Shown here piece after piece: positions 736 to 61,353 of a DNA stretch of 64,000 bases. The notes beneath the pieces are model-generated. The model saw only the letters and a list, made by a program, of their open reading frames with translations. It was not told where the DNA came from and did no database searches. Source of the stretch: an uncultured delta proteobacterium (GTDB lineage: Bacteria > Desulfobacterota > Binatia > Binatales > Binataceae); NCBI GenBank assembly GCA_963794325.1, contig CAWCDG010000004.1:352001-416000 (forward strand), read 5' to 3'. The translations under genes and the position numbers were made by a program. Position 1 is the first letter of the stretch. Each line of letters begins with the position of its first letter.

Positions 736-2448
736 TCAAATTTTTCCCGCCGACGGCAGAATCTTCTGCCGCTCGTAATCCGCAGTCACGGTATCGATTG
801 TGTCCGCCTGCTCGACTGACTTGTCGTCCCGGATGCGCACGATGCGCGCGAATCGCAACGCCATGCCGGCGTCGTAATTCGGACTGCGCTGGATATCGTT
901 GTAAGCAACTTCGACGACGACCTCGGGGCGAACGGTCACCACGCCGTGTGACTCCGCGGTCTTGAGCGCGAGCAGTCGCTCGGTCATCGCGCGGAACTGC
1001 TCGTCGTTCAGACCCTTGAAGGTTTTGCCGAGCATCGCGAATCCGCCGCTCTTGTCGCGCGCTGCGAGATGGTAATTGGACAGCCAACCGTGACGGCGTC
1101 CGTAGCCCCACTCCGCCGCGATGATCACCAGGTCGAGTGTGCGGGTGTGCTTTATTTTCAACCATCCGCGACCGCGCGCGCCCGGCGTGTACGCGCTCGC
1201 CAGCGACTTCGCCATCACGCCCTCATATCCGGCGGCGACCGCCTCCGCGTAAAACTTTTCGGCGCGGGCAAGGTCCGGCCTGACGATTCGTTCGACAATC
1301 TCCAGCGCGGCTGACGACTGCAATTCCTCGAGCATCGAAATTCTCTCCGCCCACGGACGATCGATCGTCAGCGTGCCGTCGAGCGCGAGCACATCGAATA
1401 CGTACAGTTTCAACGGTTGATCGACTCGCGCTTTCTCGACGTCGCGCGTGCGTCCAAAGCGTCGCATCAGGTCCTGAAACGCTGCCGGCCGCCCCGCGGC
1501 GTCAACCCCGATCACCTCGCCGTCGAGAATCGCGTGACGCGCGCCGATTCGATTCACGACCTCGACGACATCGGGAATGCTTTCGGTGATCTCGTTCAGC
1601 CGGCGCGAGAAAATTCGTACTTCGCCGTCCGTCGCATGATGGATCTGCACGCGCGCGCCATCGAGCTTGTGTTCGAACGATAGCTCCGGGCCAAGCGTGG
1701 CGAACGCTTCCGCGATATCGCCAACCGGAAACGCGAGCATCGGCTTGAGCGGCTTGACGGCGTCAGAAGATTTGTCGGCAACTAACTGCTCCGCGCCGGC
1801 CGGCGATCGAATCATTCGCACCACGCGGCCGAGGTCAGCCTCCAGCATGTGAATCCGGCGAACTTCAGTGACAGGGCGCGCGCTCATTTTTGCGATCGCC
1901 TCGAGCATCAATCCCTCGCTGACGCCATGGCGCATCTCACCGATCAGAATCTTCGCGACGTACTTGCCTTCGAACGACGACGCGCGCGCGAACAGCTCGC
2001 GCAGCGCGTCGAGCTTGCGCTTGCGCGCGTGACGTCCTTCTATCGCGGCTATCTCCGCAAATTTTTGGTTGAGCTCGCGAATCGTAAGCGTGGGTTCCGG
2101 TTCGGCGGCGCGGAGCTTGAGCGTCATCTCGACCGCCTCGCCGAAGTCCTCGGCGGCGGTGAAGATATCTTCGCCCTGGTCAGCGCTGTCGGTCATCTCG
2201 GCGACGATTTTCCAGATGGCGCGGCCACTAATCTGCAGGCGCTTCTCCTCGCCCTGCTCGACCGCGCGTCCGACCATAAATCGCGCCGCGATCTCGGCTT
2301 CGTCGATATCGAGCGAGGCGAGGAACGTCCCAACCTCTTCGGCCATCTGCAGCCGGCTCTGCGTCTGGCTGAGCGATTGGCAGACGTTCGCGAAATCGTA
2401 AAACGAAGGCACGAAGCAGATTAATGCCGCCCGCGCCCCCTCGCGCAA
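736..2448 (-). CDS. ATP-dependent DNA ligase (LigB-like; start possibly GTG 2412)
   Basis: EHKLDGAR adenylation motif, EGVMAK, WLKIK, LRFARIVRIRDDK. Confidence 0.93.
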   Translation of the reverse strand: MREGARAALICFVPSFYDFANVCQSLSQTQSRLQMAEEVGTFLASLDIDEAEIAARFMVGRAVEQGEEKRLQISGRAIWKIVAEMTDSADQGEDIFTAAEDFGEAVEMTLKLRAAEPEPTLTIRELNQKFAEIAAIEGRHARKRKLDALRELFARASSFEGKYVAKILIGEMRHGVSEGLMLEAIAKMSARPVTEVRRIHMLEADLGRVVRMIRSPAGAEQLVADKSSDAVKPLKPMLAFPVGDIAEAFATLGPELSFEHKLDGARVQIHHATDGEVRIFSRRLNEITESIPDVVEVVNRIGARHAILDGEVIGVDAAGRPAAFQDLMRRFGRTRDVEKARVDQPLKLYVFDVLALDGTLTIDRPWAERISMLEELQSSAALEIVERIVRPDLARAEKFYAEAVAAGYEGVMAKSLASAYTPGARGRGWLKIKHTRTLDLVIIAAEWGYGRRHGWLSNYHLAARDKSGGFAMLGKTFKGLNDEQFRAMTERLLALKTAESHGVVTVRPEVVVEVAYNDIQRSPNYDAGMALRFARIVRIRDDKSVEQADTIDTVTADYERQKILPSAGKI

Positions 2449-2464
2449 GCGCCGCGAGATTTGC

Positions 2465-3256
2465 CTACGCTGCTATCGGGTGCGACTTAACGAACGGCAG
2501 AAATACTTTCAGAAATTCGCCGCGGGCATCTGACATGAACGCGTGGCCGACACCCGGGATGATCTGCAACTTCGCGCCGGGGATCTGCGCCGCGAGAATC
2601 TCGGAGTTCTTCGCCGGGATCAGCACGTCCTCGGCTCCCGTCACGACCAGCGTCGGCGTCTTGATTTGCGGCAGCCGCTCGAAAGTCTTCAGCGTGTAAG
2701 TCGCTTCGAGCTGGCGCTGGAACGCGAACGGCGGCGTCGGATATTTGAGCAGGCGCGGGATCGTAGCTTCGAGCACGTCGCGATGCTCCGCGATGTATTT
2801 CGCCGTATGCCCCAGCGGCCATCCGCGGCGAATTACATCCTCCGGCGCAACGCCTTCGCGTGGCGCAGTCAGAATTTTCAACGACTCGGGCGGCGGCGGC
2901 ACAGAATGCGTACCGCCCGCGGTGGTGCATCCGAGCGTGAGCGTCGCCGTTCGCTTCGGGTGCCGCAGCGCGAACTCCTGCGCGATCATCCCGCCCATCG
3001 ACACGCCAAAAATATGCGCCTGCGGAACGTCGAGCTTGTCCAGCACACTCGCCGCGTCATCGGCGAACATCTCGATCGAGTACGGCGCGTCCGGCTTGTC
3101 GCTCTGCCCGGTGCCGCGATTGTCGAACGTGATCACTCGAAGCGTCCGCCCGAGTTCGGTGATCAGCTCGGGATCCCACGCCGCCGAGCTGGCGCCGAGA
3201 CCCATGATCATCAGGAGTGGATCGCCGCTCCCGGCAACGTCGTAGTGAAGGTTCAT
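2465..3256 (-). CDS. Alpha/beta fold hydrolase
   Basis: GVSMGG nucleophile elbow, DNRGTGQSD, C-terminal GH. Confidence 0.9.
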   Translation of the reverse strand: MNLHYDVAGSGDPLLMIMGLGASSAAWDPELITELGRTLRVITFDNRGTGQSDKPDAPYSIEMFADDAASVLDKLDVPQAHIFGVSMGGMIAQEFALRHPKRTATLTLGCTTAGGTHSVPPPPESLKILTAPREGVAPEDVIRRGWPLGHTAKYIAEHRDVLEATIPRLLKYPTPPFAFQRQLEATYTLKTFERLPQIKTPTLVVTGAEDVLIPAKNSEILAAQIPGAKLQIIPGVGHAFMSDARGEFLKVFLPFVKSHPIAA

Positions 3257-3319
3257 ATCGCCTTATACCTTTTGGATTCTTTGACGGTTCCGCGAACTCG
3301 AATCGCGTCCAACTTGAGC

Positions 3320-4768
3320 TTATCTTCCCGATGCAGCGGCCTTGTCAACGACGTTGTGCTGAACCTTGCTGTGGAAGCGGCCGTAGCTGAAATAGATGAC
3401 GAGTCCGATTAGCAGCCATACGAAAAAACGAATCCACGTCACGATCGGCAGACTCGCCATCAGGTAAACGCAAAACACGACGCCCAGAATCGGCACCAGC
3501 GGCACCAGCGGCGTGCGGAACGGGCGTTTCATATCGGGCTCGACGTGGCGCAAAATCCACACGCCGAAGCATACCAGCACGAAGGCGAACAGCGTGCCGA
3601 TATTGGTCAGCTCCGCGATCTCCTGAATCGGCAGCAGCGCCGCGGTGATTCCAACTGCGAACCCAGTCAGCGTCGTCGGGATATACGGCGTGCGATACTT
3701 CGGATGTATCTTGCTGAAGGCCGGCGGCAGCAAGCCGTCGCGCGACACGGCGAAAAATACTCGCGACTGCCCGAGCATCAGCACCAGCAGCACCGAGGTC
3801 AGGCCCGCGACCGCGCCGAGCGAGATAAATCCCGACAACGCATGCATCCCGCGTAGCACGAAGGCCGACGCCAGCGGCGCGTTCACGTCGATCAGGTGCG
3901 CCGGCACCATCCCGGTCAGCACGGCGGCGACCAGGATATACAGCACCGTGCATACGAACAGCGAGCCGAGGATGCCGAGTGGCAGGTCGCGATTCGGATC
4001 GATGACTTCCTCCGCCGCCGTCGAGACCGCATCGAATCCGATGTACGCGAAGAAAATCACGGCCGCGCCTTTCATCACGCCCGACCATCCCATCGGCGCG
4101 AACGGACTCCAGTTTGCCGGCCTGACGAAAAATGCGCCGACGATGATTACCGCGGCGATCACCACAAGCTTGATTCCCACGATGAACGAATTGATCCGCG
4201 CGCTCTCCGAGATGCCGATGTACAGCACGTATGTGATCAGCATTACGATCAGCAGCGCGGGCAGGTTGATAATCGCGCCGGGCGCCGATCCGGGCGCATT
4301 GGTAATCGCGACCGGCAAATGGATTCCGAGACCGTGCAGGATGACGGTCAGATAGCCTGACCATCCGACTGCCACGGCGGCCGCGCCGACAGCGTATTCG
4401 AGCACGAGGTCCCATCCGATGATCCAGCCGACCAGCTCGCCCATCGTCGCGTACGAATACGAATACGCGCTGCCTGCGACCGGAATCATCGCGGCGAATT
4501 CGGCGTAGCACAGTGCAGCCATCGCGCATGCGAATCCCGACACGACGAACGAGAGCACGATTGCAGGCCCGGCGAATTTTGCCGCGGCGACGCCGGTCAA
4601 CACGAAAATTCCAGCGCCGACGATTGCGCCGATTCCGAGCAACGTGAGATCGAGCGCGCCCAGCGCCCTTTTGAGGCCGCCTTCGTGCAGGCCCGCCTCT
4701 GCCATCAATGCGGACGCCGGCTTGCGCCGGAACATTTGCGCCCGCAGTCCGGTTCCGTTCATCCCCAC
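3320..4768 (-). CDS. APC-family amino acid permease
   Basis: GAIVGAGIF, GSAYSYSY, FFAYIGFD motifs; many TM segments. Confidence 0.92.
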   Translation of the reverse strand: MGMNGTGLRAQMFRRKPASALMAEAGLHEGGLKRALGALDLTLLGIGAIVGAGIFVLTGVAAAKFAGPAIVLSFVVSGFACAMAALCYAEFAAMIPVAGSAYSYSYATMGELVGWIIGWDLVLEYAVGAAAVAVGWSGYLTVILHGLGIHLPVAITNAPGSAPGAIINLPALLIVMLITYVLYIGISESARINSFIVGIKLVVIAAVIIVGAFFVRPANWSPFAPMGWSGVMKGAAVIFFAYIGFDAVSTAAEEVIDPNRDLPLGILGSLFVCTVLYILVAAVLTGMVPAHLIDVNAPLASAFVLRGMHALSGFISLGAVAGLTSVLLVLMLGQSRVFFAVSRDGLLPPAFSKIHPKYRTPYIPTTLTGFAVGITAALLPIQEIAELTNIGTLFAFVLVCFGVWILRHVEPDMKRPFRTPLVPLVPILGVVFCVYLMASLPIVTWIRFFVWLLIGLVIYFSYGRFHSKVQHNVVDKAAASGR

Positions 4769-4784: not shown

Positions 4785-5567
4785 TCACCACGCCTGGTAT
4801 CCGCCGTCCACCGAAATTACCGACCCCGTAACGTAGCTTGATGCGGGACTGGCAAGGAAGATCACCGCGCCGCGAATTTCGTGCGGGAGTCCCAGACGCT
4901 TCATCGGCGTGAACGCTTCCATCCGCTCCTTGTTCGCGGGCTTCGCGATTCCGCCTTCGGTGGCTTCAGTGGGAATCCATCCCGGCGCGATCGCGTTCAC
5001 CAGAATTCCGTAGCCGGCCCATTCGACCGCGAGCTGCCGCGTGAGATTCGCGAGCGCGGCCTTGGTCGCCACGTATGCCGACAGCCGATACACCGAACTC
5101 GCGACCGACGCGTAGATCGAAGCCATGTTGATGATCCGGCCCGGCTGTTTGGTCTCGATCAGTCGGCGCGCGACGCGTTGCGACAGCATCATCGGCGCGG
5201 TCAGATTCACGGCGAGCGTCTCGTCCCACGCCTCGCGCTTGAAGGTCTCAGCGCGCCCGGTCGGCGACACTCCGGCGTTATTCACCAGGATGTCGACGTC
5301 GCCGATGGCAGCCGTCGCTTCGGCCATCACGCGATCGAGGTCGGCCTCGCGCGTCACGTCGGCGCCGATTCCGACGGCTTTGACGCCGTGCGCTTTCGCG
5401 AACTCCTCCGCAAGCTTAGCGACCCGGTCTTTGCGCCGCGCGACGAGCGCGACGTCGGCGCCTGCAATTGCGAGAGCCTTTGCGCATTCGACGCCGAGTC
5501 CCGACGAAGCGCCGGTCACCAGCGCGCGATGTCCGCGAAGAGAGAACAGAGATTCGAGTGAATCCAT
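4785..5567 (-). CDS. SDR family oxidoreductase
   Basis: TGASSGLG, NNAG, YVATK. Confidence 0.92.
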   Translation of the reverse strand: MDSLESLFSLRGHRALVTGASSGLGVECAKALAIAGADVALVARRKDRVAKLAEEFAKAHGVKAVGIGADVTREADLDRVMAEATAAIGDVDILVNNAGVSPTGRAETFKREAWDETLAVNLTAPMMLSQRVARRLIETKQPGRIINMASIYASVASSVYRLSAYVATKAALANLTRQLAVEWAGYGILVNAIAPGWIPTEATEGGIAKPANKERMEAFTPMKRLGLPHEIRGAVIFLASPASSYVTGSVISVDGGYQAW

Positions 5568-8691: not shown

Positions 8692-9022
8692 GTGGGAAGG
8701 GGAAATCACTTTATTTAATGTGAAACCCTGCGCGGGTTTCGCGCTTCCGCGGCAGGGGTGACCCCTGCACCCAGTGAGAATCGCAAAATGGCGAGGACGC
8801 CCTTTTGCTCGAAGGGTCGGGGGGAGGATGGGGGCCGGGAAATTACCTCGCCCATTATTTTACGGGAGAGGTAAGCGTCGGACGCCTCCTCCCTTAACCC
8901 CTTCTAACAGGGACGAAGTCCCGCATCTTCTCTTATTACTGGGTGCAGGGGTCACCCCTGCCGAAGGAAGCGTGAAACCCACCGCGGGTTTCACATTAAA
9001 TAAAGTGATTTACCCTTCCCAC
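8692..9022. mobile_element. Family A MITE/REPIN-like element, complete
   Basis: ~84 bp terminal inverted arms (8692-8775, 8938-9022), each with hairpins GTGAAACCC..GGGTTTCAC and GCAGGGG..CCCCTGC. Confidence 0.8.
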
Positions 9023-9024
9023 CG

Positions 9025-10467
9025 TCAGGGGCGGCGTTGATACGTGGCGGTGCCGTCGCGGTTGTCTTTGACGTCGTAGCCGCGGCGCTCGATTTCCTTG
9101 CGCAACTCGTCGGCGAGCGTGAAGTCTTTGGCCTTGCGCGCCGCCGTTCGATTGTCGATCAGTTGCTGCACATCCGGCTCGATCGAACTGGTGCGCGCCG
9201 CGTCGCGATGCTTTTTCAGATCGAGTCCGAGCATCGTGTCGAGCGCCAGCAGCGCCGGCCATGCGCGGAAATCCTTGCGGCGGTAGGCTTCCGCGACCAG
9301 TTCCAGAGCCATCGCAAGCGCCTGCGGGGTGTTCAGGTCGTTGTTAATCGCGTCGTGAAAGCGCTCGTAATACTCGGCCGCCCATCCCGCGGCCTCGACG
9401 CCGTCGGCCGCCGCATCTTCCGGCACGCTGCGCGCGAACTCGCGAAAATAATCGAGATTGCTCTGCGACGCGCGGATCGAATCGTCGCTGAACGCAATCT
9501 CGGATCGGTACTTCGCACCGTAACAAAAAATCCGGAACGCGAGCGGATCGATCCCGGCTGCTCCAAGATCGCTCAGCAGCGGGAACTTGCCCGCACTCTT
9601 GCTGATCTTGGCGCCCTCCTTGCCGACCAGGAACGCATTGTGGACGAAATACCGCGCGAACGGTTGGTGCGTCGCGCTTTCCGATTGCGCAATTTCATTT
9701 TCGTGATGCACCGGGATGTGATCGATGCCGCCGGTGTGAATGTCGATCGTCTCGCCGAGATATTTCATCGCCATCGCGGAGCATTCGATATGCCATCCCG
9801 GATAGCCGCGCCCCCACGGACTGTCCCATTGCATCAGGTGGCCGGGCTGGCCGAGCACCCACAGTGTGAAATCGTGCGGGCTGCGCTTATCGACGGAATG
9901 CTCGAGGCGTTGCGCGGCGTTCTGCTCGTCGAGGCTCTGGCGCGACAGCCGGCCCATCCGATTCTCGCCGCGGTACCGCTCGACGTCGAAATAAACGCCG
10001 CTGTTGGTGACGTAGGCCACGCCGGCGTCGATGATTCTTTTCGTGAGCGCGATCATATCGGCGATGTGATCGGTCGCGCGCGACCATACATGGGGCGGCT
10101 CGATATTCAGCGCGGCGCAATCGCGCTGAAACTGCGCGAGATAAAAGTTCGCGACCTCGAGTGGCGATTTGCCTTGCGCGCGAGCGGTTTTCTCGATCTT
10201 GTCCTCGCCGGCGTCCTCGTCGCTGGTCATGTGCCCGACGTCGGTCACGTTCATCACATGGCGCACCTGGTAGCCGTTGAACTCGAGCGCGCGGCGCAAG
10301 GTATCGACGAAGACGTAGGCACGCATATTCCCGAGGTGCTGCGGCAGATAGACGGTCGGGCCGCATGAGTAGAGCGTCACCTCATTTGGATTGAGCGGGT
10401 GAAATTCCTCGACGGCGCGGGTCAGCGAATTGAAAATGTAGAATGGTTTCACGAGTGCGAGCGTCAA
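9025..10467 (-). CDS. cysS: Cysteine--tRNA ligase
   Basis: CGPTVY, HLGN, PGWHIECSAM, HHENE, KISKS. Confidence 0.96.
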   Translation of the reverse strand: MTLALVKPFYIFNSLTRAVEEFHPLNPNEVTLYSCGPTVYLPQHLGNMRAYVFVDTLRRALEFNGYQVRHVMNVTDVGHMTSDEDAGEDKIEKTARAQGKSPLEVANFYLAQFQRDCAALNIEPPHVWSRATDHIADMIALTKRIIDAGVAYVTNSGVYFDVERYRGENRMGRLSRQSLDEQNAAQRLEHSVDKRSPHDFTLWVLGQPGHLMQWDSPWGRGYPGWHIECSAMAMKYLGETIDIHTGGIDHIPVHHENEIAQSESATHQPFARYFVHNAFLVGKEGAKISKSAGKFPLLSDLGAAGIDPLAFRIFCYGAKYRSEIAFSDDSIRASQSNLDYFREFARSVPEDAAADGVEAAGWAAEYYERFHDAINNDLNTPQALAMALELVAEAYRRKDFRAWPALLALDTMLGLDLKKHRDAARTSSIEPDVQQLIDNRTAARKAKDFTLADELRKEIERRGYDVKDNRDGTATYQRRP

Positions 10468-10482
10468 GCTTAGCGTGGGCTG

Positions 10483-10602
10483 GGGGAAGGGTAAATCACT
10501 TCATTGAATGTGAAACCCTCCGCGGGTTTCAAACTTCCGCGGCAGGGGTGACCCCTGCACCCGGTATTAATCGCAAAACGGCGAAGACGCCATTTTGCTC
10601 TG
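10483..10602 (+). repeat. Family A left arm
   Basis: Near-identical to 8692-8810. Confidence 0.8.
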
Positions 10603-10626
10603 TTCTTTTGGGAGTGGGCTTCTTGC

Positions 10627-10766
10627 GTCATTCAGAGCGAAAGTTACTGTAGCGAAGAATCCCGGATTTGACGACGCAAAAATGCTCGCATGCGCCATGG
10701 TTGAGGGTTGAGTCGGCCGGCATTCAGAAGAACCGGCGATCTCTTTGTCATTCGCTCAGAATGACA
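10627..10766. repeat. Family D palindromic repeat pair (GTCATTC.GAGCGAA...GCGAAGAATC)
   Basis: Inverted copy TTCGCTCAGAATGAC at the right end; similar copy near 61267. Confidence 0.6.
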
Positions 10767-10799
10767 TCAAGGAGGTAAGATTCGCTGCGCTCAATTCCT

Positions 10800-11279
10800 T
10801 CACAGACTCTCTGAAACGACACGAGGGAACCTAACCCCTAACCCCTTCCCGAGCGGGAAGGGGAACCGGATGAAAAGAGCTGGCCGCGGGCGTCGCGCTG
10901 AGTAGCGGGAGGCGGCGATCCGTTTGTATTGGCGATCCGCCATCCATGCGTAGCCAGGGATGTACCATAGATAGGCGAGGTAGCCCTTGAGGCCGTGCTG
11001 TCGGCGGAGAATCTCGTTGATGGCGCGGGCGCCGCGATAGACGCGGCCGGTTTCGTCGACTGCGTGCAATTCTTCGAGCAGGTTCTCCATTTTCAGCTCG
11101 GGGAATTTCGCGCGCACTTCTTCATCATGAAGATCGAGCGGCTCCATCTTGCCCGAGTTGTCGAATTGCCGGATTCCGTCGAGACTGGCCCGGCACATCT
11201 CGCACGAGCCGTCGTACAGAATCGCGAGCTTGCCCGGCGACGCCTTGCCGACAGTCTCCGCCTGCCCGCTATCGACCAT
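10800..11279 (-). CDS. DCC1-like thiol-disulfide oxidoreductase (DUF393)
   Basis: ILYDGSCEMC (DxxCxxC) motif; 3' end runs into a family B repeat. Confidence 0.85.
   Translation of the reverse strand: MVDSGQAETVGKASPGKLAILYDGSCEMCRASLDGIRQFDNSGKMEPLDLHDEEVRAKFPELKMENLLEELHAVDETGRVYRGARAINEILRRQHGLKGYLAYLWYIPGYAWMADRQYKRIAASRYSARRPRPALFIRFPFPLGKGLGVRFPRVVSESL
10828..10870 (+). repeat. Family B repeat (CCTAACCCCTAACCCCTTCCC-loop-GGGAAGGGGAACC)
   Basis: Matches copies at 11986, 29659, 31573, 47659. Confidence 0.85.
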
Positions 11280-36018: not shown

Positions 36019-36552
36019 CTACGCCAGCGCCTCAAGGAGCGCGCCCGGTGATGCGTTGTCGCCGAAGGTCGCGCTCACATGAGCGTAGAGATCGACGTTG
36101 CCGGGACCGAAAACGAAACTGCCGCCGAGCTGAAAGGGATTCGCGCCCAAGCGATGCTGTCGATGGCCGGCGGCCGTGGCGCGCGTCCTGGCTTTCGCAT
36201 TGTCACTGCGAAGCAGGTGCAGAAGATTCGCCGCTTTGAGGCCGGCCGCACGATACGCGAGCCGCTGCGCATCTACCAGGAGCGGAAATGTGATTCCAGT
36301 CTCCTCGCGAAAGAGGCGAGCGTAACGAAGATCGCCAAGACCGATTGCGGCAAGATTGACGCCCTTGGCGCGGAATTCATTTTCATGGTCGCGCAACTGC
36401 GCAACATGCTCGCGGCAGAAGATTCAACCGTAGTGGCGGAGGAAGACGATAGCGGCGGGGCTGCGTTCCCATAAAGAGCCGAGCCGGACTTCGCGATCAT
36501 CTGTATCGGGCAGGGTAATTCCGGAGAGCGCAAGACTGAGCGAGTCGGACAT
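36019..36552 (-). CDS. Selenocysteine-containing AhpC/TSA-like (SelL/PRXL2-like) redoxin, 177 aa
   Basis: In-frame read VFLRHYG-TGA-IFCREH (UxxC); TGA at 36424-36426; C-terminal QLGGSFV. Confidence 0.88.
36385..36407 (-). promoter_or_regulatory. Bacterial SECIS-like hairpin
   Basis: AUG-UUGCGC-AGUU-GCGCGA-C-CAU, apical loop 25 nt after UGA with G at loop position 2. Confidence 0.65.
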
Positions 36553-36611
36553 CGTCGGAACCTAACACGATCAGGCGAGAATCGGCAAAAGAAGCGTCCG
36601 CGGCGTTTTGT

Positions 36612-36640
36612 TTATCCACAGATCGGCGGGTTTTTCCACA
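36612..36640 (+). promoter_or_regulatory. Two tandem DnaA boxes
   Basis: TTATCCACA (36612) and TTTTCCACA (36632) match TTWTNCACA. Confidence 0.55.
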
Positions 36641-36895
36641 ATGAGGGTCTCGCGGAACTTCACGCTCGAAGATCGCCGCACTATTATCGCCGCTCAAATG
36701 ACGAAGCGGGAAGCGAAACGACGTCTTGAAAACCTCGCGCTCGAAACCGGGCACAAGAGGAATTACTACGTCAAGCGGGCGCTGGTCGAATTTCTGGATC
36801 GCAACGAACATCTCTTCGGCCAGCGGCCGACGCGATCGGTGGGATTCTCGACGCTCGACGAGATCCCATACCGCGCGAACCGATTCTTGCTCTGA
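36641..36895 (+). CDS. Small ribbon-helix-helix-like protein
   Basis: RLENLALETGHKRNYYVKRALVEFL resembles CopG/RHH helices. Confidence 0.55.
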   Translation: MRVSRNFTLEDRRTIIAAQMTKREAKRRLENLALETGHKRNYYVKRALVEFLDRNEHLFGQRPTRSVGFSTLDEIPYRANRFLL

Positions 36896-36898
36896 TTG

Positions 36899-37532
36899 CT
36901 CTCTCGTAGCGATCTTTCTGGATCCCTCGCCCGTTACTTCACGGGAGAGGTTAGGTGAGGGTCCCGGGCGCCATCGTGATGCTCGACAAATCGCGTTGCG
37001 CTGAGCATCCGACTGATCTCTTGAGCAAGGCGGGTGACAATCAGTTCCGCAAGTGAGACTATTTGTCAATGCCGGACCTCACACCGCCGCGAGTGATCGC
37101 GAAGCAACCGCTGGCTCGCTCCCGCGCACTCCGTCGCAATTCCACTGACGCCGAGAAACGCCTGTGGGCGATCCTCCGAAACCGAAATCTCGACCGCTGG
37201 AAATTCCGTCGGCAGGTGGCAATCGATTCATTCATCGTCGATTTCTGCTGCATCGAAGCGCGGCTAATTGTTGAGCTCGATGGAGGACAGCACGCAGACA
37301 AACGCAAGCGTTACGACGATGCACGAACACGGGAGCTCAAAGCCCTCGGTTTCAGAGTGCTTAGATTTTGGAATGGAGAAGTGTTGCAGGAGACTGAAGG
37401 CGTCGTTGAAGAGATCAGTCGGATGCTCAGCGCAACGAGAAATGTCGAGCATCACGATGGCAACCGGAACCCTCACCTAACCTCTCCCGTGAAGTAACGG
37501 GCGAGGGACCAGAAAGAATCGCAACGAGAGAG
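36899..37532. mobile_element. Putative minimal element: DUF559 gene between ~124 bp inverted repeats
   Basis: 36899-37022 is the reverse complement of 37409-37532 with 9 differences by manual alignment. Confidence 0.7.
37069..37497 (+). CDS. DUF559 (Vsr-like) endonuclease domain protein
   Basis: LRRNSTDAEKRLW, KFRRQ, IVDF, IVELDGGQH, GFRVLRFWN. Confidence 0.92.
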   Translation: MPDLTPPRVIAKQPLARSRALRRNSTDAEKRLWAILRNRNLDRWKFRRQVAIDSFIVDFCCIEARLIVELDGGQHADKRKRYDDARTRELKALGFRVLRFWNGEVLQETEGVVEEISRMLSATRNVEHHDGNRNPHLTSPVK

Positions 37533-37569
37533 TAAAAAAATTCGGGGGCTGGGATTGCTCCCAGCCCCC
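37533..37569 (-). terminator. Intrinsic terminator
   Basis: GGGGGCTGGGA-GCAA-TCCCAGCCCCC followed by a U tract on the minus strand. Confidence 0.85.
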
Positions 37570-38059: not shown

Positions 38060-40876
38060 CTATGAGCACCCGCTGGTGGTGCCGCAGTTCATGCATTTGT
38101 AGCAGGCGCCGTTGCGCACCATTATGCTGCCGCAGTCCGGGCATGGCGGCGCATCCGCCTGATTGATGAACGCCTGCCGGATGCCACCGTCCTTGCCGTC
38201 GCGCAGGCTGGCCACCGGAGCCATGGCGACCATTGCGATTGGCATGTCGGATTTTGCCGACAGCGGTTTTTCGGATTCGATAATTCCGACTTCGCGCTTG
38301 GCTTCTTCGTCCAGGAACTTCGACGCCATCCAGCGGAACAGGTAGTCGACGATCGACTTGGCGTACGGAATCTGCGGATTCTTGCTGAAGCCCGACGGCT
38401 CGAAGCGCATGTGCGAGAATTTGTCCACGAGGAATTGCAGCGGAACCCCGTACTGCAGCGCGAACGAAATCGCCGTCGCGAACGAGTCCATCAGGCCAGA
38501 GATAGTCGAGCCCTGCTTGGACATCGTGACGAAAATTTCGCCCGGCGTGCCGTCCTCGTACATGCCGACCGTGATGTAACCTTCGTGGCCGGCGATATCG
38601 AATTTGTGCGTGATCGATCGGCGCTCGTCGGGCAGCTTGCGCCGCTGCATCCGCTCGTCGGTCGCCGCGATCGCCGCCGCTGCGACCGTCTCGACCGCCT
38701 TCTCGGCCTTGCTGGTGTTGAGCGGCTGCGTGCGCTTCGATCCGTCCCGATAAATCGCGACCGCTTTCAGCCCGAGCTTCCACGCGGTGACGTAAGCCTC
38801 GGCGACTTCGTCAACGGTCGCTTCCGCGGGCATGTTGATGGTCTTGGAAATCGCGCCGGAGATGAACGGCTGGACGGCACCCATCATCTTGATGTGCCCG
38901 TTGTAGTGAATCGTGCGGGCGCCGGCGCGCGGCTTGAATGCGCAATCGAAAACCGCGAGATGCGCATCGGCCAGCTGCGGTGCGCCTTCAATCGTCTCGT
39001 TCTCGTCGAGGTACTCGACGATTTCCTGCACTTCCTTCGAATCGTAGCCGAGGCGCTTGAGCGCGCGCGGCACGGTGCCATTGACAATTTTCAGCATCCC
39101 GCCGCCGACCAGCTTTTTGTACTTGATCAGCGCGATGTCGGGCTCGATGCCGGTGGTGTCGCAATCCATCATGAATGCGATGGTGCCGGTCGGCGCGATC
39201 ACGGTCGCCTGCGAATTGCGATAGCCGGCCGCGGTACCGAGTTTCAGCGCTTCGTCCCATGAGTCGCGCGCGGCGCGCAGCAGGTCGAGCGGAACGTACG
39301 ACGGATCGAGCTTGTAGGCGTACGATTTGTGGCGGTCGATAACTTTCAGCATCGGCTCGCGATTTGGCGCGTAGCCGGCGAACGGTCCCATGTGCTCGGC
39401 GATGCGCGCCGACTGCAGATAGGCCTCGCCCGTCATCAGCGCGGTGATCGCGGCGGCGTAGCTGCGGCCCTGGTCACTGTCGTAAGGCATCCCGAGCGCC
39501 ATCAGCAGCGCGCCGAGGTTCGCGAAGCCAAGCCCGAGCTCACGGAAGGCGCTGGCGTTCTTGGCGATCTCGTCGGTGGGATAGGACGAGTTGTCGACGA
39601 TGATATCCTGCGCCGTGATCATTACATCGATCGCGTGGCGGAATGCGCGCACGTCGAACTCGCCACGATCGTCGATGAACTTCATCAGGTTGAGCGACGC
39701 GAGATTGCACGCGGAGTTGTCGAGATGCATGTACTCGCTGCACGGATTCGACGCGTTGATGCGCCCGCTGGCCGGGCAGGTGTGCCACAGGTTGATAGTG
39801 GTATCGAACTGCATCCCGGGGTCGCCGCATGCGTGGGCAGCCTCGGCGATCATGTGGAGTATCCTGCGCGCGGGGCGGGTCTCGGCAACCTCGCTCGACT
39901 TGACGAAGTGGGTCTGCCATTCGGCGTCGTCGAGCACCGACTGCATGAAGCCGTCGGTCGCGCGCACACTGTTGTTCGCGTTCTGGAAAAATACCGAGCC
40001 GTAAGCGGGGCCGTCGAGCGAGGAGTCGTAACCGGCCTCGATCAGCGCCCACGCCTTGCGCTCTTCCTCTACTTTGCACTTGATGAAATCGACGATGTCA
40101 GGATGGTCGGCGTTGAGCACGACCATCTTGGCCGCGCGGCGGGTCTTGCCGCCCGACTTGATTACCCCGGCGCTCGCGTCGGCCGCCTTCATGAACGACA
40201 ACGGTCCCGAAGCGGTGCCGCCCGCCGAAAGTTTCTCGCGCGAACCGCGCAGCGCGGAGAGGTTGACGCCGGCGCCCGATCCGCCTTTGAAGATCATGCC
40301 CTCATTGCGGTACCAGCTCAGGATCGAGTCCATGCTGTCCTCGACCTTGAGGATGAAGCATGCGGAGCACTGCGGTTTGGCCTCGATGCCGACGTTGAAA
40401 TAGACCGGGCTGTTGAACGACACCTTCTGATTGAGGAGCAGGTATTTGAGCTCGTCGTGGAAAGTCTCGCGCGCGTCGGCGTCGGCAAAATAATCCTGCT
40501 TCTCGCTCCATCCCGCGATGGTGTCGACGACGCGCGAGATCAATTGGCGGACGCTGTTCTCGCGACGCGGCGTGCCGAGCGGTCCGCGAAAATATTTCGA
40601 GACGACGACGTTGGTGGCGGTTTGCGACCAGGCTCGCGGAACTTCGACATCTTTCTGCTCGAAGACAACGCGGCCGTCCTCGCCCGAGATAACGGCGCTG
40701 CGGAGATCCCACTCGACTTGCGAATACGGATCGACGCCGGCGGTCGTGAAGAACCGCTCGAGTACGATGCCGCGACCGGGCGCCGCAGAATTGACCGCGC
40801 CGCCATTGAGGGCTGGTGCGCGGTCGGTTGTTTTTGCCTTGGAATCCATCTCGAAATCTATCGCTCCCCCACCCAT
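38060..40876 (-). CDS. nrdJ: Class II (B12-dependent) ribonucleotide reductase with TSCPD and Zn-ribbon C-terminus
   Basis: PQCSACFI, NPCSE, IAPTGT, YRDGSK, CPDCG...CMNCGTTSGCS. Confidence 0.95.
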   Translation of the reverse strand: MGGGAIDFEMDSKAKTTDRAPALNGGAVNSAAPGRGIVLERFFTTAGVDPYSQVEWDLRSAVISGEDGRVVFEQKDVEVPRAWSQTATNVVVSKYFRGPLGTPRRENSVRQLISRVVDTIAGWSEKQDYFADADARETFHDELKYLLLNQKVSFNSPVYFNVGIEAKPQCSACFILKVEDSMDSILSWYRNEGMIFKGGSGAGVNLSALRGSREKLSAGGTASGPLSFMKAADASAGVIKSGGKTRRAAKMVVLNADHPDIVDFIKCKVEEERKAWALIEAGYDSSLDGPAYGSVFFQNANNSVRATDGFMQSVLDDAEWQTHFVKSSEVAETRPARRILHMIAEAAHACGDPGMQFDTTINLWHTCPASGRINASNPCSEYMHLDNSACNLASLNLMKFIDDRGEFDVRAFRHAIDVMITAQDIIVDNSSYPTDEIAKNASAFRELGLGFANLGALLMALGMPYDSDQGRSYAAAITALMTGEAYLQSARIAEHMGPFAGYAPNREPMLKVIDRHKSYAYKLDPSYVPLDLLRAARDSWDEALKLGTAAGYRNSQATVIAPTGTIAFMMDCDTTGIEPDIALIKYKKLVGGGMLKIVNGTVPRALKRLGYDSKEVQEIVEYLDENETIEGAPQLADAHLAVFDCAFKPRAGARTIHYNGHIKMMGAVQPFISGAISKTINMPAEATVDEVAEAYVTAWKLGLKAVAIYRDGSKRTQPLNTSKAEKAVETVAAAAIAATDERMQRRKLPDERRSITHKFDIAGHEGYITVGMYEDGTPGEIFVTMSKQGSTISGLMDSFATAISFALQYGVPLQFLVDKFSHMRFEPSGFSKNPQIPYAKSIVDYLFRWMASKFLDEEAKREVGIIESEKPLSAKSDMPIAMVAMAPVASLRDGKDGGIRQAFINQADAPPCPDCGSIMVRNGACYKCMNCGTTSGCS

Positions 40877-40998
40877 CGCCACATCCTCCCCGCCTCGGTT
40901 ACACGCGCGTTAAGCCCACATCCGGATCCACCAGAACAAACGTCGCTTTTCGGCTGGCTGTGACACAATCTGGAGTCGCCAAGAGCGTGGTGGCCGTC

Positions 40999-41698: not shown

Positions 41699-41822
41699 AG
41701 GGGGAAGCCACTACATTTGATGTGAAACCCTTCGCGGGTTTCACACTTCCGCGGCAGGGGTGACCCCTGCACCCAGTGAAAAGTATTATTCGCAAAATGG
41801 CGAGGACGCCATTTTGCTCTAA
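41699..41822 (+). repeat. Family A left arm
   Basis: Matches 8692-8810. Confidence 0.8.
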
Positions 41823-61119: not shown

Positions 61120-61353
61120 ACTTTATTGAATGTGAAACCCTTCGCGGGTTTCACGCTTCCGCGGCAGGGGTGACCCCTGCACCCAGTAATAATAAGAACA
61201 GAGCAGGATGCGGGACGGAGTTTACTCTGTGAGTACTCGTAGGGTCCCTGTTAGAAGTTTTTTTGTGTCATTCTAGAGCGAAAGATGCTGTAGCGAAGAA
61301 TCCCGGCTCCTTCTTCCCTCTCCCTGTTAGGGAGAGGATCAAGGTGAGGGTCC
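61120..61353. repeat. Mosaic repeat cluster: family A arm, family D, family E
   Basis: A arm ~61120-61257, GTCATTCTAGAGCGAA near 61267, CCCTCTCCC..GGGAGAGG..GGTGAGGGTCC near 61316. Confidence 0.75.

What the first reader, a model, noticed from the sequence alone, without database searches (positions are those of the whole stretch)
36899..37532. DUF559 endonuclease enclosed by long inverted repeats: candidate new REP-mobilising element
Seen: 36899-37022 and 37409-37532 are ~124 bp inverted repeats (9 differences). The right copy includes the last ~29 codons and the stop of the nuclease, so the left copy is an antisense duplicate of the gene's own 3' end. Each arm holds a hairpin (CCCTCGCCCG..CGGGAGAGG) plus a TTAGGTGAGGG tail. 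A possible leaderless promoter (GTGACA-N17-GACTAT) lies just inside the left arm. Related hairpins occur alone at 8846, 53461 and 61316, and family B has the same layout. No target-site duplication is visible. Established analogue: RAYT transposases flanked by inverted REPs, but DUF559 is a Vsr-like fold, not HUH or DDE. Inference: a selfish or domesticated nuclease-REP system in which the enzyme cuts its hairpin and spreads non-autonomous copies, with the long arm made by fold-back copying.
Basis: partly seen in the sequence, partly recalled or inferred. Interest (0 to 1): 0.85.

Follow-up and report, generated by a model that had tools for sequence, protein, structure and literature searches.

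The report
Nuclease gene framed by triplex-type repeats
A small nuclease gene of unknown role sits between mirror-image copies of a hairpin repeat that is also scattered through the genome, which points to a possible partner enzyme for an old class of orphan bacterial repeats.

Summary
Arms 36896-37031 and 37400-37535 are a 136-nt inverted repeat around a DUF559 (Vsr-fold) gene, 37069-37497.

It is not a one-off:
- All 7 DUF559 loci of this Binatus-like genome carry inward-facing hairpin-plus-G-rich-tail motifs on both sides.
- Elsewhere, flanking inverted repeats occur at 25 of 38 and 20 of 26 loci, against 0 of 72 and 1 of 52 shifted controls.
- The motif has the three-block BoxC/PIT/TM "intrastrand triplex" build. 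It lies beside 51 of 64 DUF559 genes, against 3 of 123 controls.
- Each cassette's motif is also dispersed as solo or gene-less copies, 7 to about 300 per family.
- The genome's two RAYT genes have different REPs of their own.

The unusually long arm is particular to this genome. Six orthologous loci carry the cassette in the opposite orientation with 40-69-nt arms. Two relatives have a bare hairpin at the site and one has a remnant.

That the nuclease acts on the repeats is inference. I found no paper linking DUF559 to these repeats. This scan has noted the pairing before on other DNA: 114 notes.

The parts
36896..37031 (+). Left arm of the inverted repeat. It comprises an outer extension (36896-36924), the hairpin CCTCGCCCG-TTACTTCA-CGGGAGAGG (36925-36950), the G-rich mirror tail TTAGGTGAGGG (36951-36961), and an antisense copy of the gene's 3' end (36962-37031).
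   Evidence: public contigs with 0 differences span 36863-37111
37034..37062 (+). The block is partly conserved upstream of the orthologous genes.
   Evidence: Read; not called by the consensus scan; no expression data
37069..37497 (+). DUF559 (Vsr-fold, PD-(D/E)xK-like) nuclease gene of 142 aa from the ATG (ORF listing gives TTG 37063). The last 9 residues, NPHLTSPVK, and the stop are encoded by the repeat itself.
   Evidence: Pfam PF04480, E 2.2e-41, 140.6 bits; PDB 3hrl, E 1.4e-27; D58, E69, D71 and H75 invariant in 6 paralogues; dN/dS 0.06-0.16 against orthologues
37400..37535 (+). Right arm. It comprises the gene's last 32 codons, the tail complement CCCTCACCTAA (37470-37480), the hairpin CCTCTCCCG-TGAAGTAA-CGGGCGAGG (37481-37506), and an outer extension (37507-37535).
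36608..36895 (+). Flanking 95-codon ORF with no Pfam family. Its stop abuts the left arm. It is conserved next to the cassette in relatives.
37534..37569 (-). Terminator-like hairpin downstream of the class II ribonucleotide reductase gene (38060-40882, minus strand). It abuts the right arm and serves as the conserved right anchor of the insertion site.
8846..8871 (+). Solo family-A hairpin that keeps the same G:A stem mismatch.
61317..61350 (+). Solo BoxC-like hairpin CCTCTCCCTGTTAGGGAGAGG followed by ATCAA-GGTGAGGG.

Best explanation
The feature is one of seven "DUF559 cassettes" in this Binatus-like (Binatota) genome. Each cassette is a small Vsr-fold nuclease gene bracketed by inverted copies of a BoxC/PIT/TM-type motif. 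The motif runs pyrimidine block, loop, purine block, then a G-rich block that mirrors the purine block. The mirror tails point toward the gene.

Shown:
- The architecture recurs in several phyla.
- Each cassette's motif also exists as dispersed solo copies or gene-less two-armed miniatures.
- Whole cassettes recur at unrelated sites with edges at the arm ends.
- The gene is under purifying selection.
- The window's copy is an old resident of a variable intergenic spot beside nrdJ.

In this genome the inner segment is inverted relative to the nearest relatives. The arms have grown to 136 nt, taking in the last 32 codons of the gene, so the gene would stay whole in either orientation.

Inferred: the nuclease recognises its own folded motif (hairpin or intrastrand triplex in single-stranded or supercoiled DNA) and nicks it, and repair or replication of the nick copies, maintains or rearranges motif copies. 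On this reading it works like a RAYT with its REPs, though with a different enzyme fold. Recombination between the arms, perhaps provoked by such nicks, would explain both the inversion and the arm expansion.
For: Architecture
- 6 of 7 DUF559 loci in the genome have flanking inverted repeats of 47-128 nt by self-BLAST. The seventh shows hairpin plus tail on both sides by reading.
- Cross-phylum set: 25 of 38 loci with full pads have flanking repeats, 19 of them 30 nt or longer, against 0 of 36 and 0 of 36 shifted controls.
- Same-class relatives: 20 of 26 loci, against 1 of 52 controls.
- The three-block triplex-type motif, oriented toward the gene, lies on at least one side of 51 of 64 genes and on both sides of 33 of 64. 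Controls gave 3 of 123 and 0 of 123.

Dispersed families in this genome
- A: 31 hairpin hits. B: 27-31. C: 54. D: 218-296 (221 hairpins, 201 with tail). E: 7.
- Eight gene-less miniatures of about 245 bp share both arms with the C cassette.
- Paralogous cassettes lie at unrelated sites. For D the homology edges equal the arm ends (481 bp). For B the homology (618 bp) starts within a few nt of the left arm's edge and runs about 50 nt past the right arm.

Specificity
- The two Y1_Tnp (RAYT) genes are flanked by other REPs, with about 80 and 59 copies.
- D-motif counts in the eight genomes holding a D-type gene at 70% identity or more, G000 included, are 205, 123, 99, 95, 79 (pseudogene only), 77, 33 and 22.
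- Fifteen congeners without such a gene have a median of 5 and a range of 0-59.
- Sixteen genomes of other genera have 0.

Function
- dN/dS is 0.06-0.16 with dS 0.7-2.7.
- D58, E69, D71 and H75 are invariant.

This locus
- Six orthologous loci are syntenic but inverted.
- G013 and G006 have a bare hairpin at the site; G009 has a remnant.
- G000 nests with the normally oriented G001 and G004.

Link to BoxC
- E. coli ycjD (DUF559) is followed by CCCTCGCCCC-TCT-GGGGAGAGGG-TTA-GGGTGAGGGG.
- There are 8 exact TMECO-pattern matches in this genome.
Against: - No call tests binding or cleavage. The partnership rests on association alone.
- Association could come from co-inheritance, because arms and gene move as one unit.
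- Exceptions exist. G013 (59 motifs) and G023 (54) hold many D motifs with no D-type gene found; they are 86% and 82% complete. G003 has a B cassette but no B solos.
- At least two PIT-type families here have no DUF559 gene in this 85%-complete genome: TMECO-like, with 8 exact-pattern matches, and a CCTCTCCCTGTTAGGGAGAGG type.
- 13 of 38 and 6 of 26 loci show no flanking repeat.
- D elements also bracket two unrelated small genes.
- Hairpin energies are unremarkable.
- Orientation relative to GC skew is only weakly biased (D: 52 against 77). This gives no support to a lagging-strand ssDNA mechanism.
- The cassette has stayed at one site over dS of 0.7 or more, so this copy is not recently mobile.
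Confidence: 0.5

Rival explanations
1. Homing-type element. The nuclease cuts a bare solo hairpin (the empty site), and the cassette is copied into the break from a filled copy, with the hairpin halves as short homology. Filled sites therefore carry two chimeric hairpins.
For: The empty sites in G013 and G006 are single, nearly perfect hairpins made of the two outer half-stems, with no tail. G006 lies outside the occupied clade. The Vsr fold includes a known homing endonuclease, as listed with DUF559 in the table of PMC3424549 (passage seen).
Against: Each hairpin is palindromic, so the two arms are also direct repeats. A deletion between them gives exactly the same "empty" hairpin. G013 and the G009 remnant sit inside the occupied clade, which favours deletion. 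Most dispersed copies are hairpin plus tail, that is cassette ends, not bare targets.
Confidence: 0.15
2. Passenger cassette. The arms are ends of a MITE-like element moved in trans by an unrelated transposase, and DUF559 is only cargo.
For: Gene-less miniatures with the same arms exist. Earlier notes of this scan describe DUF559 cassettes with IS5- or IS186-type ends in other genomes (unchecked here).
Against: There is no target-site duplication. The outer 27 nt of the arm have only the two copies, so there is no IS with such ends. Five different arm families all carry the same kind of cargo. The pairing recurs across phyla. The RAYTs here match other REPs.
Confidence: 0.15
3. Programmed inversion switch. 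The arms are recombination sites that flip the gene on and off or change its C-terminus.
For: DUF559 proteins are enriched among predicted gene-altering inversion targets, with odds ratio 14.3 (PMC9881135, table passage seen). The segment is really inverted between species.
Against: No Pfam family was found for the one untested neighbour (ORF95), and the other neighbours match unrelated families, so no recombinase was found among the genes tested. Both arms encode nearly the same tail, so flipping would not change the protein. One inversion on the tree is enough to explain the data. The orthologues' arms barely enter the coding sequence. Public contigs gave no alternative junction, but they are too short to judge.
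Confidence: 0.07
4. Unrelated neighbours. The repeats are ordinary intergenic structural or regulatory elements that pile up in a hot spot, and DUF559 is a repair enzyme with no tie to them.
For: The site is a hot spot. A Gp49/HTH_37 toxin-antitoxin-like pair sits there in four relatives. Other intergenic regions swap repeats quickly.
Against: The pairing holds at 7 of 7 loci here and 51 of 64 elsewhere, against 3 of 123 controls, with fixed inward orientation.
Confidence: 0.05
5. Assembly or chimera artefact.
For: The genome is assembled from a metagenome and is 85% complete. The right arm was not bridged by an independent contig at 99% or better.
Against: The arms differ at about 10-17 positions. 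Zero-difference contigs bridge the left arm. Orthologous loci share the layout.
Confidence: 0.02

Closest known systems
REP / REPIN sequences with their RAYT (REP-associated tyrosine transposase, Y1_Tnp PF01797) genes
   Same: A single small nuclease-type gene is flanked by inverted copies of a short hairpin repeat. That repeat is dispersed in tens to hundreds of intergenic copies. The gene is vertically kept and family-specific. This genome has two such RAYT systems side by side for comparison.
   Different: The enzyme is a Vsr-fold DUF559, not an HUH Y1 transposase. The repeats carry a G-rich mirror tail instead of a 5' GTAG head. No activity is known.
BoxC / PIT elements / TMECO intrastrand-triplex motifs (Holder et al. 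2015, PMC4666352; abstract, sections 15-16 and passages read)
   Same: Both have the three-block build: C-rich stem, G-rich stem, second G-rich mirror block. The E. coli copy beside ycjD is nearly the same sequence and has the same G:A stem mismatch. There are 8 exact TMECO-pattern matches in this genome.
   Different: The window's arms have 8-nt blocks and an 8-10-nt first loop, so they miss the published pattern. The paper reports no mobility genes near TMECO sites and does not mention ycjD or an endonuclease. Here a gene is tied to the motif.
MITEs / mobile insertion cassettes with IS-type ends
   Same: Terminal inverted repeats, gene-less miniatures, and a small cargo gene.
   Different: No target-site duplication, no matching IS ends, and the cargo is always the same family.
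Free-standing or intron-borne homing endonuclease genes, including the Vsr-fold homing enzyme listed with DUF559 in PMC3424549
   Same: A small selfish nuclease gene with presence/absence at a fixed site, whose break points lie in a short specific sequence.
   Different: Hundreds of dispersed partial copies. The gene lies between two complete repeats rather than splitting one recognition site in a host gene.

Membership tests
DUF559 (Pfam PF04480; Vsr-like branch of the PD-(D/E)xK nucleases) | Match to the family profile above the curated cut-off | tested here: met
   E 2.2e-41, 140.6 bits against a cut-off of 20.6, residues 18-122, profile positions 5-108 of 109. PDB 3hrl "endonuclease-like protein", E 1.4e-27.
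DUF559 (Pfam PF04480; Vsr-like branch of the PD-(D/E)xK nucleases) | Conserved acidic and histidine core residues | tested here: met
   D58, E69, D71 and H75 are invariant in 6 paralogues that are 36-47% identical. That these residues are catalytic is recalled, not tested.
Vsr very-short-patch repair endonuclease proper | Pairing with a cytosine-5 methyltransferase gene and T:G mismatch nicking | tested here: not met
   The neighbours are SRPBCC, an AhpC-like gene, a 95-codon ORF and a class II ribonucleotide reductase; no methyltransferase is among them. Activity is not testable here.
BoxC / PIT / TMECO triplex motif | Three blocks: pyrimidine stem, purine stem, and a G-rich third block that mirrors the purine stem (G on G, A or T on A) | tested here: met
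   The window arm reads CCTCGCCC / GGGAGAGG / GGTGAGGG. All five cassette families fit on reading. The build was found at 51 of 64 other loci against 3 of 123 controls.
BoxC / PIT / TMECO triplex motif | Exact published pattern CCCTCNCCC-N3-6-GGGNGAGGG-N3-GGGNGAGGG | tested here: not met
   The window arms have 8-nt blocks and a longer first loop. Eight other sites in the genome match exactly.
BoxC / PIT / TMECO triplex motif | Actual triplex formation | not testable with these tools
   The folding tool models hairpins only.
REP-RAYT system | HUH Y1 transposase gene (PF01797) | tested here: not met
   The enclosed gene is DUF559. The genome's two Y1_Tnp genes lie elsewhere and have other REPs.
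REP-RAYT system | Gene flanked by inverted copies of a repeat that is dispersed genome-wide | tested here: met
MITE / mobile insertion cassette | Target-site duplication and ends matching an insertion sequence | tested here: not met
   No duplication at the arm ends. The outer arm sequence has only 2 copies in the genome.
Programmed (recombinase-driven) inversion | Site-specific recombinase nearby, and both orientations present in one population | tested here: inconclusive
   No recombinase was seen among the neighbours. Only short contigs were available, so the orientation mix could not be judged.

The most novel reading that the evidence does not exclude
DUF559 nucleases are the missing partner enzymes of the BoxC/PIT/TM intrastrand-triplex repeats. 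If so, this is a second, independently evolved "domesticated nuclease plus dispersed hairpin repeat" system, spread from E. coli to Binatota, Chloroflexota and Bacteroidota. In it a Vsr-fold enzyme reads a folded hairpin or triplex, and its nicks drive copying, deletion and inversion around the repeats. That would also explain the genomic instability reported at those repeats.
Probability: 0.4. Interest if true: 0.85.

Novelty: new variant of a known kind. Interest (0 to 1): 0.7.

Why it matters
BoxC/PIT/TM repeats have been known since the early 1990s. They are abundant in many bacteria and have been linked to genomic instability. The one paper I read on them (PMC4666352) reports no mobility gene near them. 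DUF559 is a very large family with no assigned role.

A tight, oriented, cross-phylum pairing of the two gives each a testable hypothesis: a structure-specific nuclease tied to its own repeat family, parallel to RAYT and REP but built on another fold.

This genome is a useful natural test bed. It holds five DUF559-motif pairs and two RAYT-REP pairs side by side. It also holds gene-less miniatures, a pseudogene cassette, and an orthologous site seen in filled, inverted, emptied and decayed states.

E. coli ycjD with its BoxC copy makes the idea testable in a standard laboratory strain.

Tried and rejected
- Rfam scan of the whole window: no family reached its gathering score.
- ssDNA folding: the hairpins fold, but no better than shuffles. 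Stability is therefore not the argument.
- Strand bias against GC skew: weak for D (52 against 77, with 91 ambiguous) and absent for A and C. I dropped it as evidence for a single-strand mechanism.
- Stem mismatch as the Vsr-like target: the G:A mismatch is kept in all family-A and TMECO-like copies here and in the E. coli copy. Only 23 of 84 motifs detected beside other DUF559 genes have it, and 37 of 84 are perfect. It cannot be a general recognition feature.
- Defining how solo D elements insert: I compared one intergenic region in five relatives. It is too rearranged to give clean filled and empty pairs.
- Public runs: only short assembled contigs were available. They show nothing about a mix of orientations, and parts without cover are not evidence.
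- The backwards-pattern control of the B-motif search is uninformative, because the motif is a mirror repeat and matches its own reverse.
- Inward-facing D pairs are not enriched overall: 9 "+-" pairs against 10, 12 and 4 for the other orientations within 1.5 kb. Two of them bracket unrelated genes.
- Supplementary tables of PMC9881135 and PMC4666352 were not seen. They may list individual DUF559 loci or TMECO neighbours.
Full report
**1. The observation**

The inverted repeat is real. The repeat finder gives arms at 36896-37031 and 37400-37535: 136 nt, 87% complementary without gaps, 368 nt apart. BLAST with one gap gives 92.2% over 128 columns. In the whole 4.45-Mb assembly the long arm has only these two copies. 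The 31 other hits of the left-arm query cover only the hairpin core.

The enclosed ORF runs from ATG 37069 to the TAA stop at 37495-37497.
- It matches DUF559 (PF04480) at E 2.2e-41.
- It matches the solved "endonuclease-like protein" 3hrl at E 1.4e-27.

The right arm begins 32 codons before the stop. The last nine residues and the stop codon are encoded by the tail and hairpin themselves, and the stop lies in the loop.

Each arm has three named parts: the hairpin CCTCGCCCG-loop-CGGGAGAGG, the tail TTAGGTGAGGG, and a 29-nt outer extension.

- The hairpins do not fold better than shuffled sequence (z -0.06 to -0.89).
- The proposed promoter was not called by the consensus scan.
- There is no target-site duplication.

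Contigs of public runs cover 36863-37111 and 36862-37013 with no differences, which bridges the left arm. They may come from the source sample, and the right arm was not bridged at that quality.

**2. The layout is systematic**

The genome has seven DUF559 loci, one of them a pseudogene split by a TGA.
- Six have flanking inverted repeats of 47-128 nt.
- The seventh shows hairpin plus tail on both sides when read.

The arms fall into five families:
- A: the window's cassette.
- B: C5 and C6.
- C: C9.
- D: C1 and the pseudogene on C4.
- E: C3.

In every family the hairpin lies outward and a G-rich tail lies inward.

Outside this genome I tested two sets of loci.

| Set | Loci with full pads | With flanking inverted repeat | Of 30 nt or more | Shifted controls |
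|---|---|---|---|---|
| Relatives of the window's protein, from Binatota, Gamma- and Alphaproteobacteria, Acidobacteriota, Chloroflexota, Bacteroidota and others | 38 (of 44 loci) | 25 | 19 | 0 of 36 and 0 of 36 |
| Same-class genomes | 26 | 20 | 15 | 1 of 52 |

In the second set I left out L101, which comes from an unpublished genome, and L111, which is truncated. At least two loci appear in both sets. L015 and L097, and L011 and L112, have identical repeat statistics, so they are very likely the same genomes. The sets are therefore not fully independent.

**3. What the arms are**

In all five families the tail is the mirror image of the purine half of the stem, with G opposite G and A or T opposite A. 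In families C and E an extra GC hairpin separates stem and tail. The same is true of the orthologues L011, L012 and L014-L016, and of the solo A copies.

This is the three-block build of the BoxC / PIT / TM "intrastrand triplex" motifs. Holder et al. give the pattern CCCTCNCCC-N3-6-GGGNGAGGG-N3-GGGNGAGGG (PMC4666352, section 16).
- The window's arms miss the exact pattern, because they have 8-nt blocks and a longer loop.
- Eight other sites in this genome match it exactly.

A rule-based search for the three-block build, oriented toward the gene, gave these counts:
- on at least one side of 51 of 64 DUF559 genes, and on both sides of 33 of 64;
- 3 of 123 (either side) and 0 of 123 (both sides) in shifted control windows from the same loci;
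- by set: 4 of 6 orthologues, 21 of 32 cross-phylum loci, and 26 of 26 class relatives on at least one side.

In MG1655 the DUF559 gene ycjD lies next to fabI. It is followed by a partial copy of its own 3' end and then by CCCTCGCCCC-TCT-GGGGAGAGGG-TTA-GGGTGAGGGG. This is almost the window's motif and has the same G:A stem mismatch.

**4. Dispersed copies and miniatures**

BLAST of each cassette end against the genome gave these hit counts:

| Family | Hits |
|---|---|
| A | 31 |
| B | 27-31 |
| C | 54 |
| D | 218-296 |
| E | 7 |

- Family D is the commonest perfect hairpin in the genome: 221 copies, 201 with the tail, 93 in one orientation and 108 in the other. Almost all are solos.
- Family C has at least eight gene-less elements of about 245 bp that share both arms with the C cassette at 74-93% identity. 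They look like miniature derivatives.
- Paralogous cassettes lie at unrelated sites. For D the shared 481 bp ends exactly at the arm ends. For B the shared 618 bp starts within a few nt of the left arm's edge and runs about 50 nt past the right arm. Whole cassettes have therefore moved or been copied as units.

The genome's two Y1_Tnp (RAYT) genes are flanked by quite different REPs, with about 80 and 59 copies. The DUF559-linked families thus have no RAYT of their own.

Not every family has a gene. The TMECO-like family and a CCTCTCCCTGTTAGGGAGAGG family have no DUF559 partner in this 85%-complete assembly.

**5. Gene and motif across relatives**

The D motif (20-mer, up to one mismatch) was found only in the window's genus: 22 of 24 congeners and 0 of 16 genomes of other genera.

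| Group | D-motif counts |
|---|---|
| Genomes with a D-type gene (70% identity or more to P0001) | G000 205, G021 123, G011 99, G009 95, G003 79 (pseudogene only), G016 77, G006 33, G022 22 |
| 15 published congeners without one | 0, 0, 1, 1, 2, 3, 4, 5, 7, 9, 14, 22, 25, 54, 59 (median 5) |

The exceptions G013 (59) and G023 (54) are 86% and 82% complete. In G011 the gene (C27:4056-4442) lies exactly between motifs at 4045 and 4466.

Family B in its exact form is almost private to G000, with 17 copies. G003 has one B cassette and no solos.

These genomes are kin, so the contrast is descriptive and not a test. The two unpublished genomes, G019 and G024, are left out of the figures.

**6. History of this locus**

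Six loci from other species (L011-L016) are syntenic with the window. They share the SRPBCC gene, the 95-codon ORF in four of the six (L011, L012, L015, L016), the conserved stretch with the nrdJ terminator, and nrdJ itself. In all six the DUF559 segment lies in the opposite orientation relative to these flanks. The same holds for handles G001, G003, G004 and G018, which appear to be among those six.

Their arms are 40-69 nt long: hairpin, sometimes a second hairpin, then the tail. They enter the coding sequence by at most 17 codons. None has the antisense copy of the gene's 3' end.

On a tree of the nrdJ 3' part, G000 sits in a well-supported clade (100/99) with G001 and G004. The inversion is therefore derived. 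The simplest reading has two steps:
- crossing-over between the arms flipped the segment;
- repair that used the other arm as template then carried the repeat 70 nt inward and 29 nt outward.

A single template-switch or fold-back event would give the same result. I cannot tell these routes apart.

The site varies among relatives.
- G013 has, between the same anchors, only CCCTCGCCCG-TTATTTCA-CGTGCGAGG. This joins the two outer half-stems, with no tail and no gene.
- G006 has a perfect palindrome.
- G009 keeps the right arm and a stump of the left arm.
- G016, G007, G021 and G012 have a Gp49 / HTH_37 pair there instead.

G013 and G009 lie inside the occupied clade, which favours loss. G006 lies outside it.

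Because each hairpin is a palindrome, the two arms are also direct repeats. Deletion between them, and insertion into the loop of a bare hairpin, predict the same empty site. The break points lie in the hairpins either way.

The gene is not decaying in most species. dN/dS is 0.06-0.16 with dS 0.7-2.7 over 122 codons. L015 has an in-frame stop and L012 ends early. The hairpin, its mismatch and much of its loop are conserved among species whose silent sites are saturated.

**7. How it most likely works**

Shown:
- a conserved nuclease-fold gene, with invariant D58, E69, D71 and H75;
- an oriented pairing with triplex-type motifs;
- motif families that track the gene family;
- miniatures and solos;
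- unit-wise copying of cassettes;
- loss, decay and inversion with break points in the arms.

Inferred: the enzyme recognises its own folded motif and nicks it, and repair of such nicks copies or rearranges the motif. This is what a RAYT is thought to do with REPs. I put about 0.5 on this.

The rivals are:
- a homing-type insertion into bare hairpins (0.15);
- a passenger in a cassette moved by another transposase (0.15);
- a recombinase-type switch (0.07);
- chance neighbours (0.05);
- an assembly artefact (0.02).

Weak strand bias and unremarkable folding energy give no support to a single-strand hairpin mechanism. The G:A mismatch is not general.

**8. What is known**

Full-text searches gave the following.
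- No paper holds both DUF559 and "repetitive extragenic palindromic".
- Three papers hold DUF559 and "inverted repeats".
- 25 papers mention DUF559 at all, and none of the 22 listed titles concerns repeats.

One of these, PMC9881135 (table passage seen), lists "DUF559 domain-containing protein" as enriched 14-fold among predicted gene-altering inversion targets. This is the same layout seen statistically, without this explanation.

Holder et al. (abstract, sections 15-16 and passages read) state that they never found transposase or integrase remnants near TMECO sites. They do not mention ycjD or an endonuclease.

Supplementary tables of both papers were not available to me.

This scan has noted the pairing before on other DNA: 114 notes in at least 108 genomes. 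Some of them name BoxC and ycjD. I re-tested those two points here.

**9. Verdict**

- The enclosure by repeats and the tie to a dispersed repeat family are solid and general.
- The repeats belong to a known class.
- The long arm is a local rearrangement.
- The enzyme's action on the repeats remains untested.

Noticed in passing
window 8692-8748, 8966-9022, 10484-10538, and hairpins at 41723, 45948, 52167, 61133: An abundant two-hairpin element (TGAAACCC-loop-GGGTTTCA next to CAGGGGTCACCCCTG). It has 121 copies in the genome and many in five relatives. No gene is tied to it and it has no Rfam match. One inverted pair encloses the solo family-A hairpin at 8846.
   Followed up: partly
G000:C4:286943-287218 and C4:486520-486717 (L009, L010): Two RAYT-like Y1_Tnp genes, each flanked by its own REP family: AGTGGCACAGGCTTCAGCCTGTGATT with about 80 copies, and a GTAGTGGGGCGGGCC-type double hairpin with about 59 copies.
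   Followed up: partly
L060:83-798 (G016); the same site in G007, G021 and G012: In four congeners a Gp49-like (PF05973) plus HTH_37 (PF13744) gene pair occupies the spot where the window has the DUF559 cassette. The intergenic site beside nrdJ collects different small selfish modules.
   Followed up: partly
L001 (G000:C3:231148-234459), open frame 1222-3306 of the oriented locus: The family-E DUF559 reading frame stays open for 694 codons, through the right-hand repeat and into the next gene. Similar long open frames (607-677 codons) appear at DUF559 hits in G031, G010 and G019. This may be read-through or fusion.
   Followed up: no
window 36019-36552, minus strand: An AhpC/TSA_2-like gene appears split into a 125-codon and a 42-codon ORF. 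It is absent from the same interval in several relatives.
   Followed up: no
window 10440-10910 compared with L114, L116-L119: One intergenic region holds a different set of repeats in each of five close relatives: a D solo, a BoxC-like motif, a TGAAACCC element, or none. Repeat turnover is very fast.
   Followed up: partly
G000:C5:71680-72460 and C6:141870-142520: Inward-facing pairs of family-D elements bracket two small genes on the minus strand that have no DUF559 similarity. A 107-nt gene-less pair lies at C5:292901-293008.
   Followed up: partly
window 36925-36950 and 37481-37506; E. coli L055 about 5205-5240 (minus strand): The same G:A mismatch at the same stem position is kept in all family-A and TMECO-like copies of this genome and in the BoxC copy beside E. 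coli ycjD. It is not kept in most other DUF559-linked motifs.
   Followed up: partly
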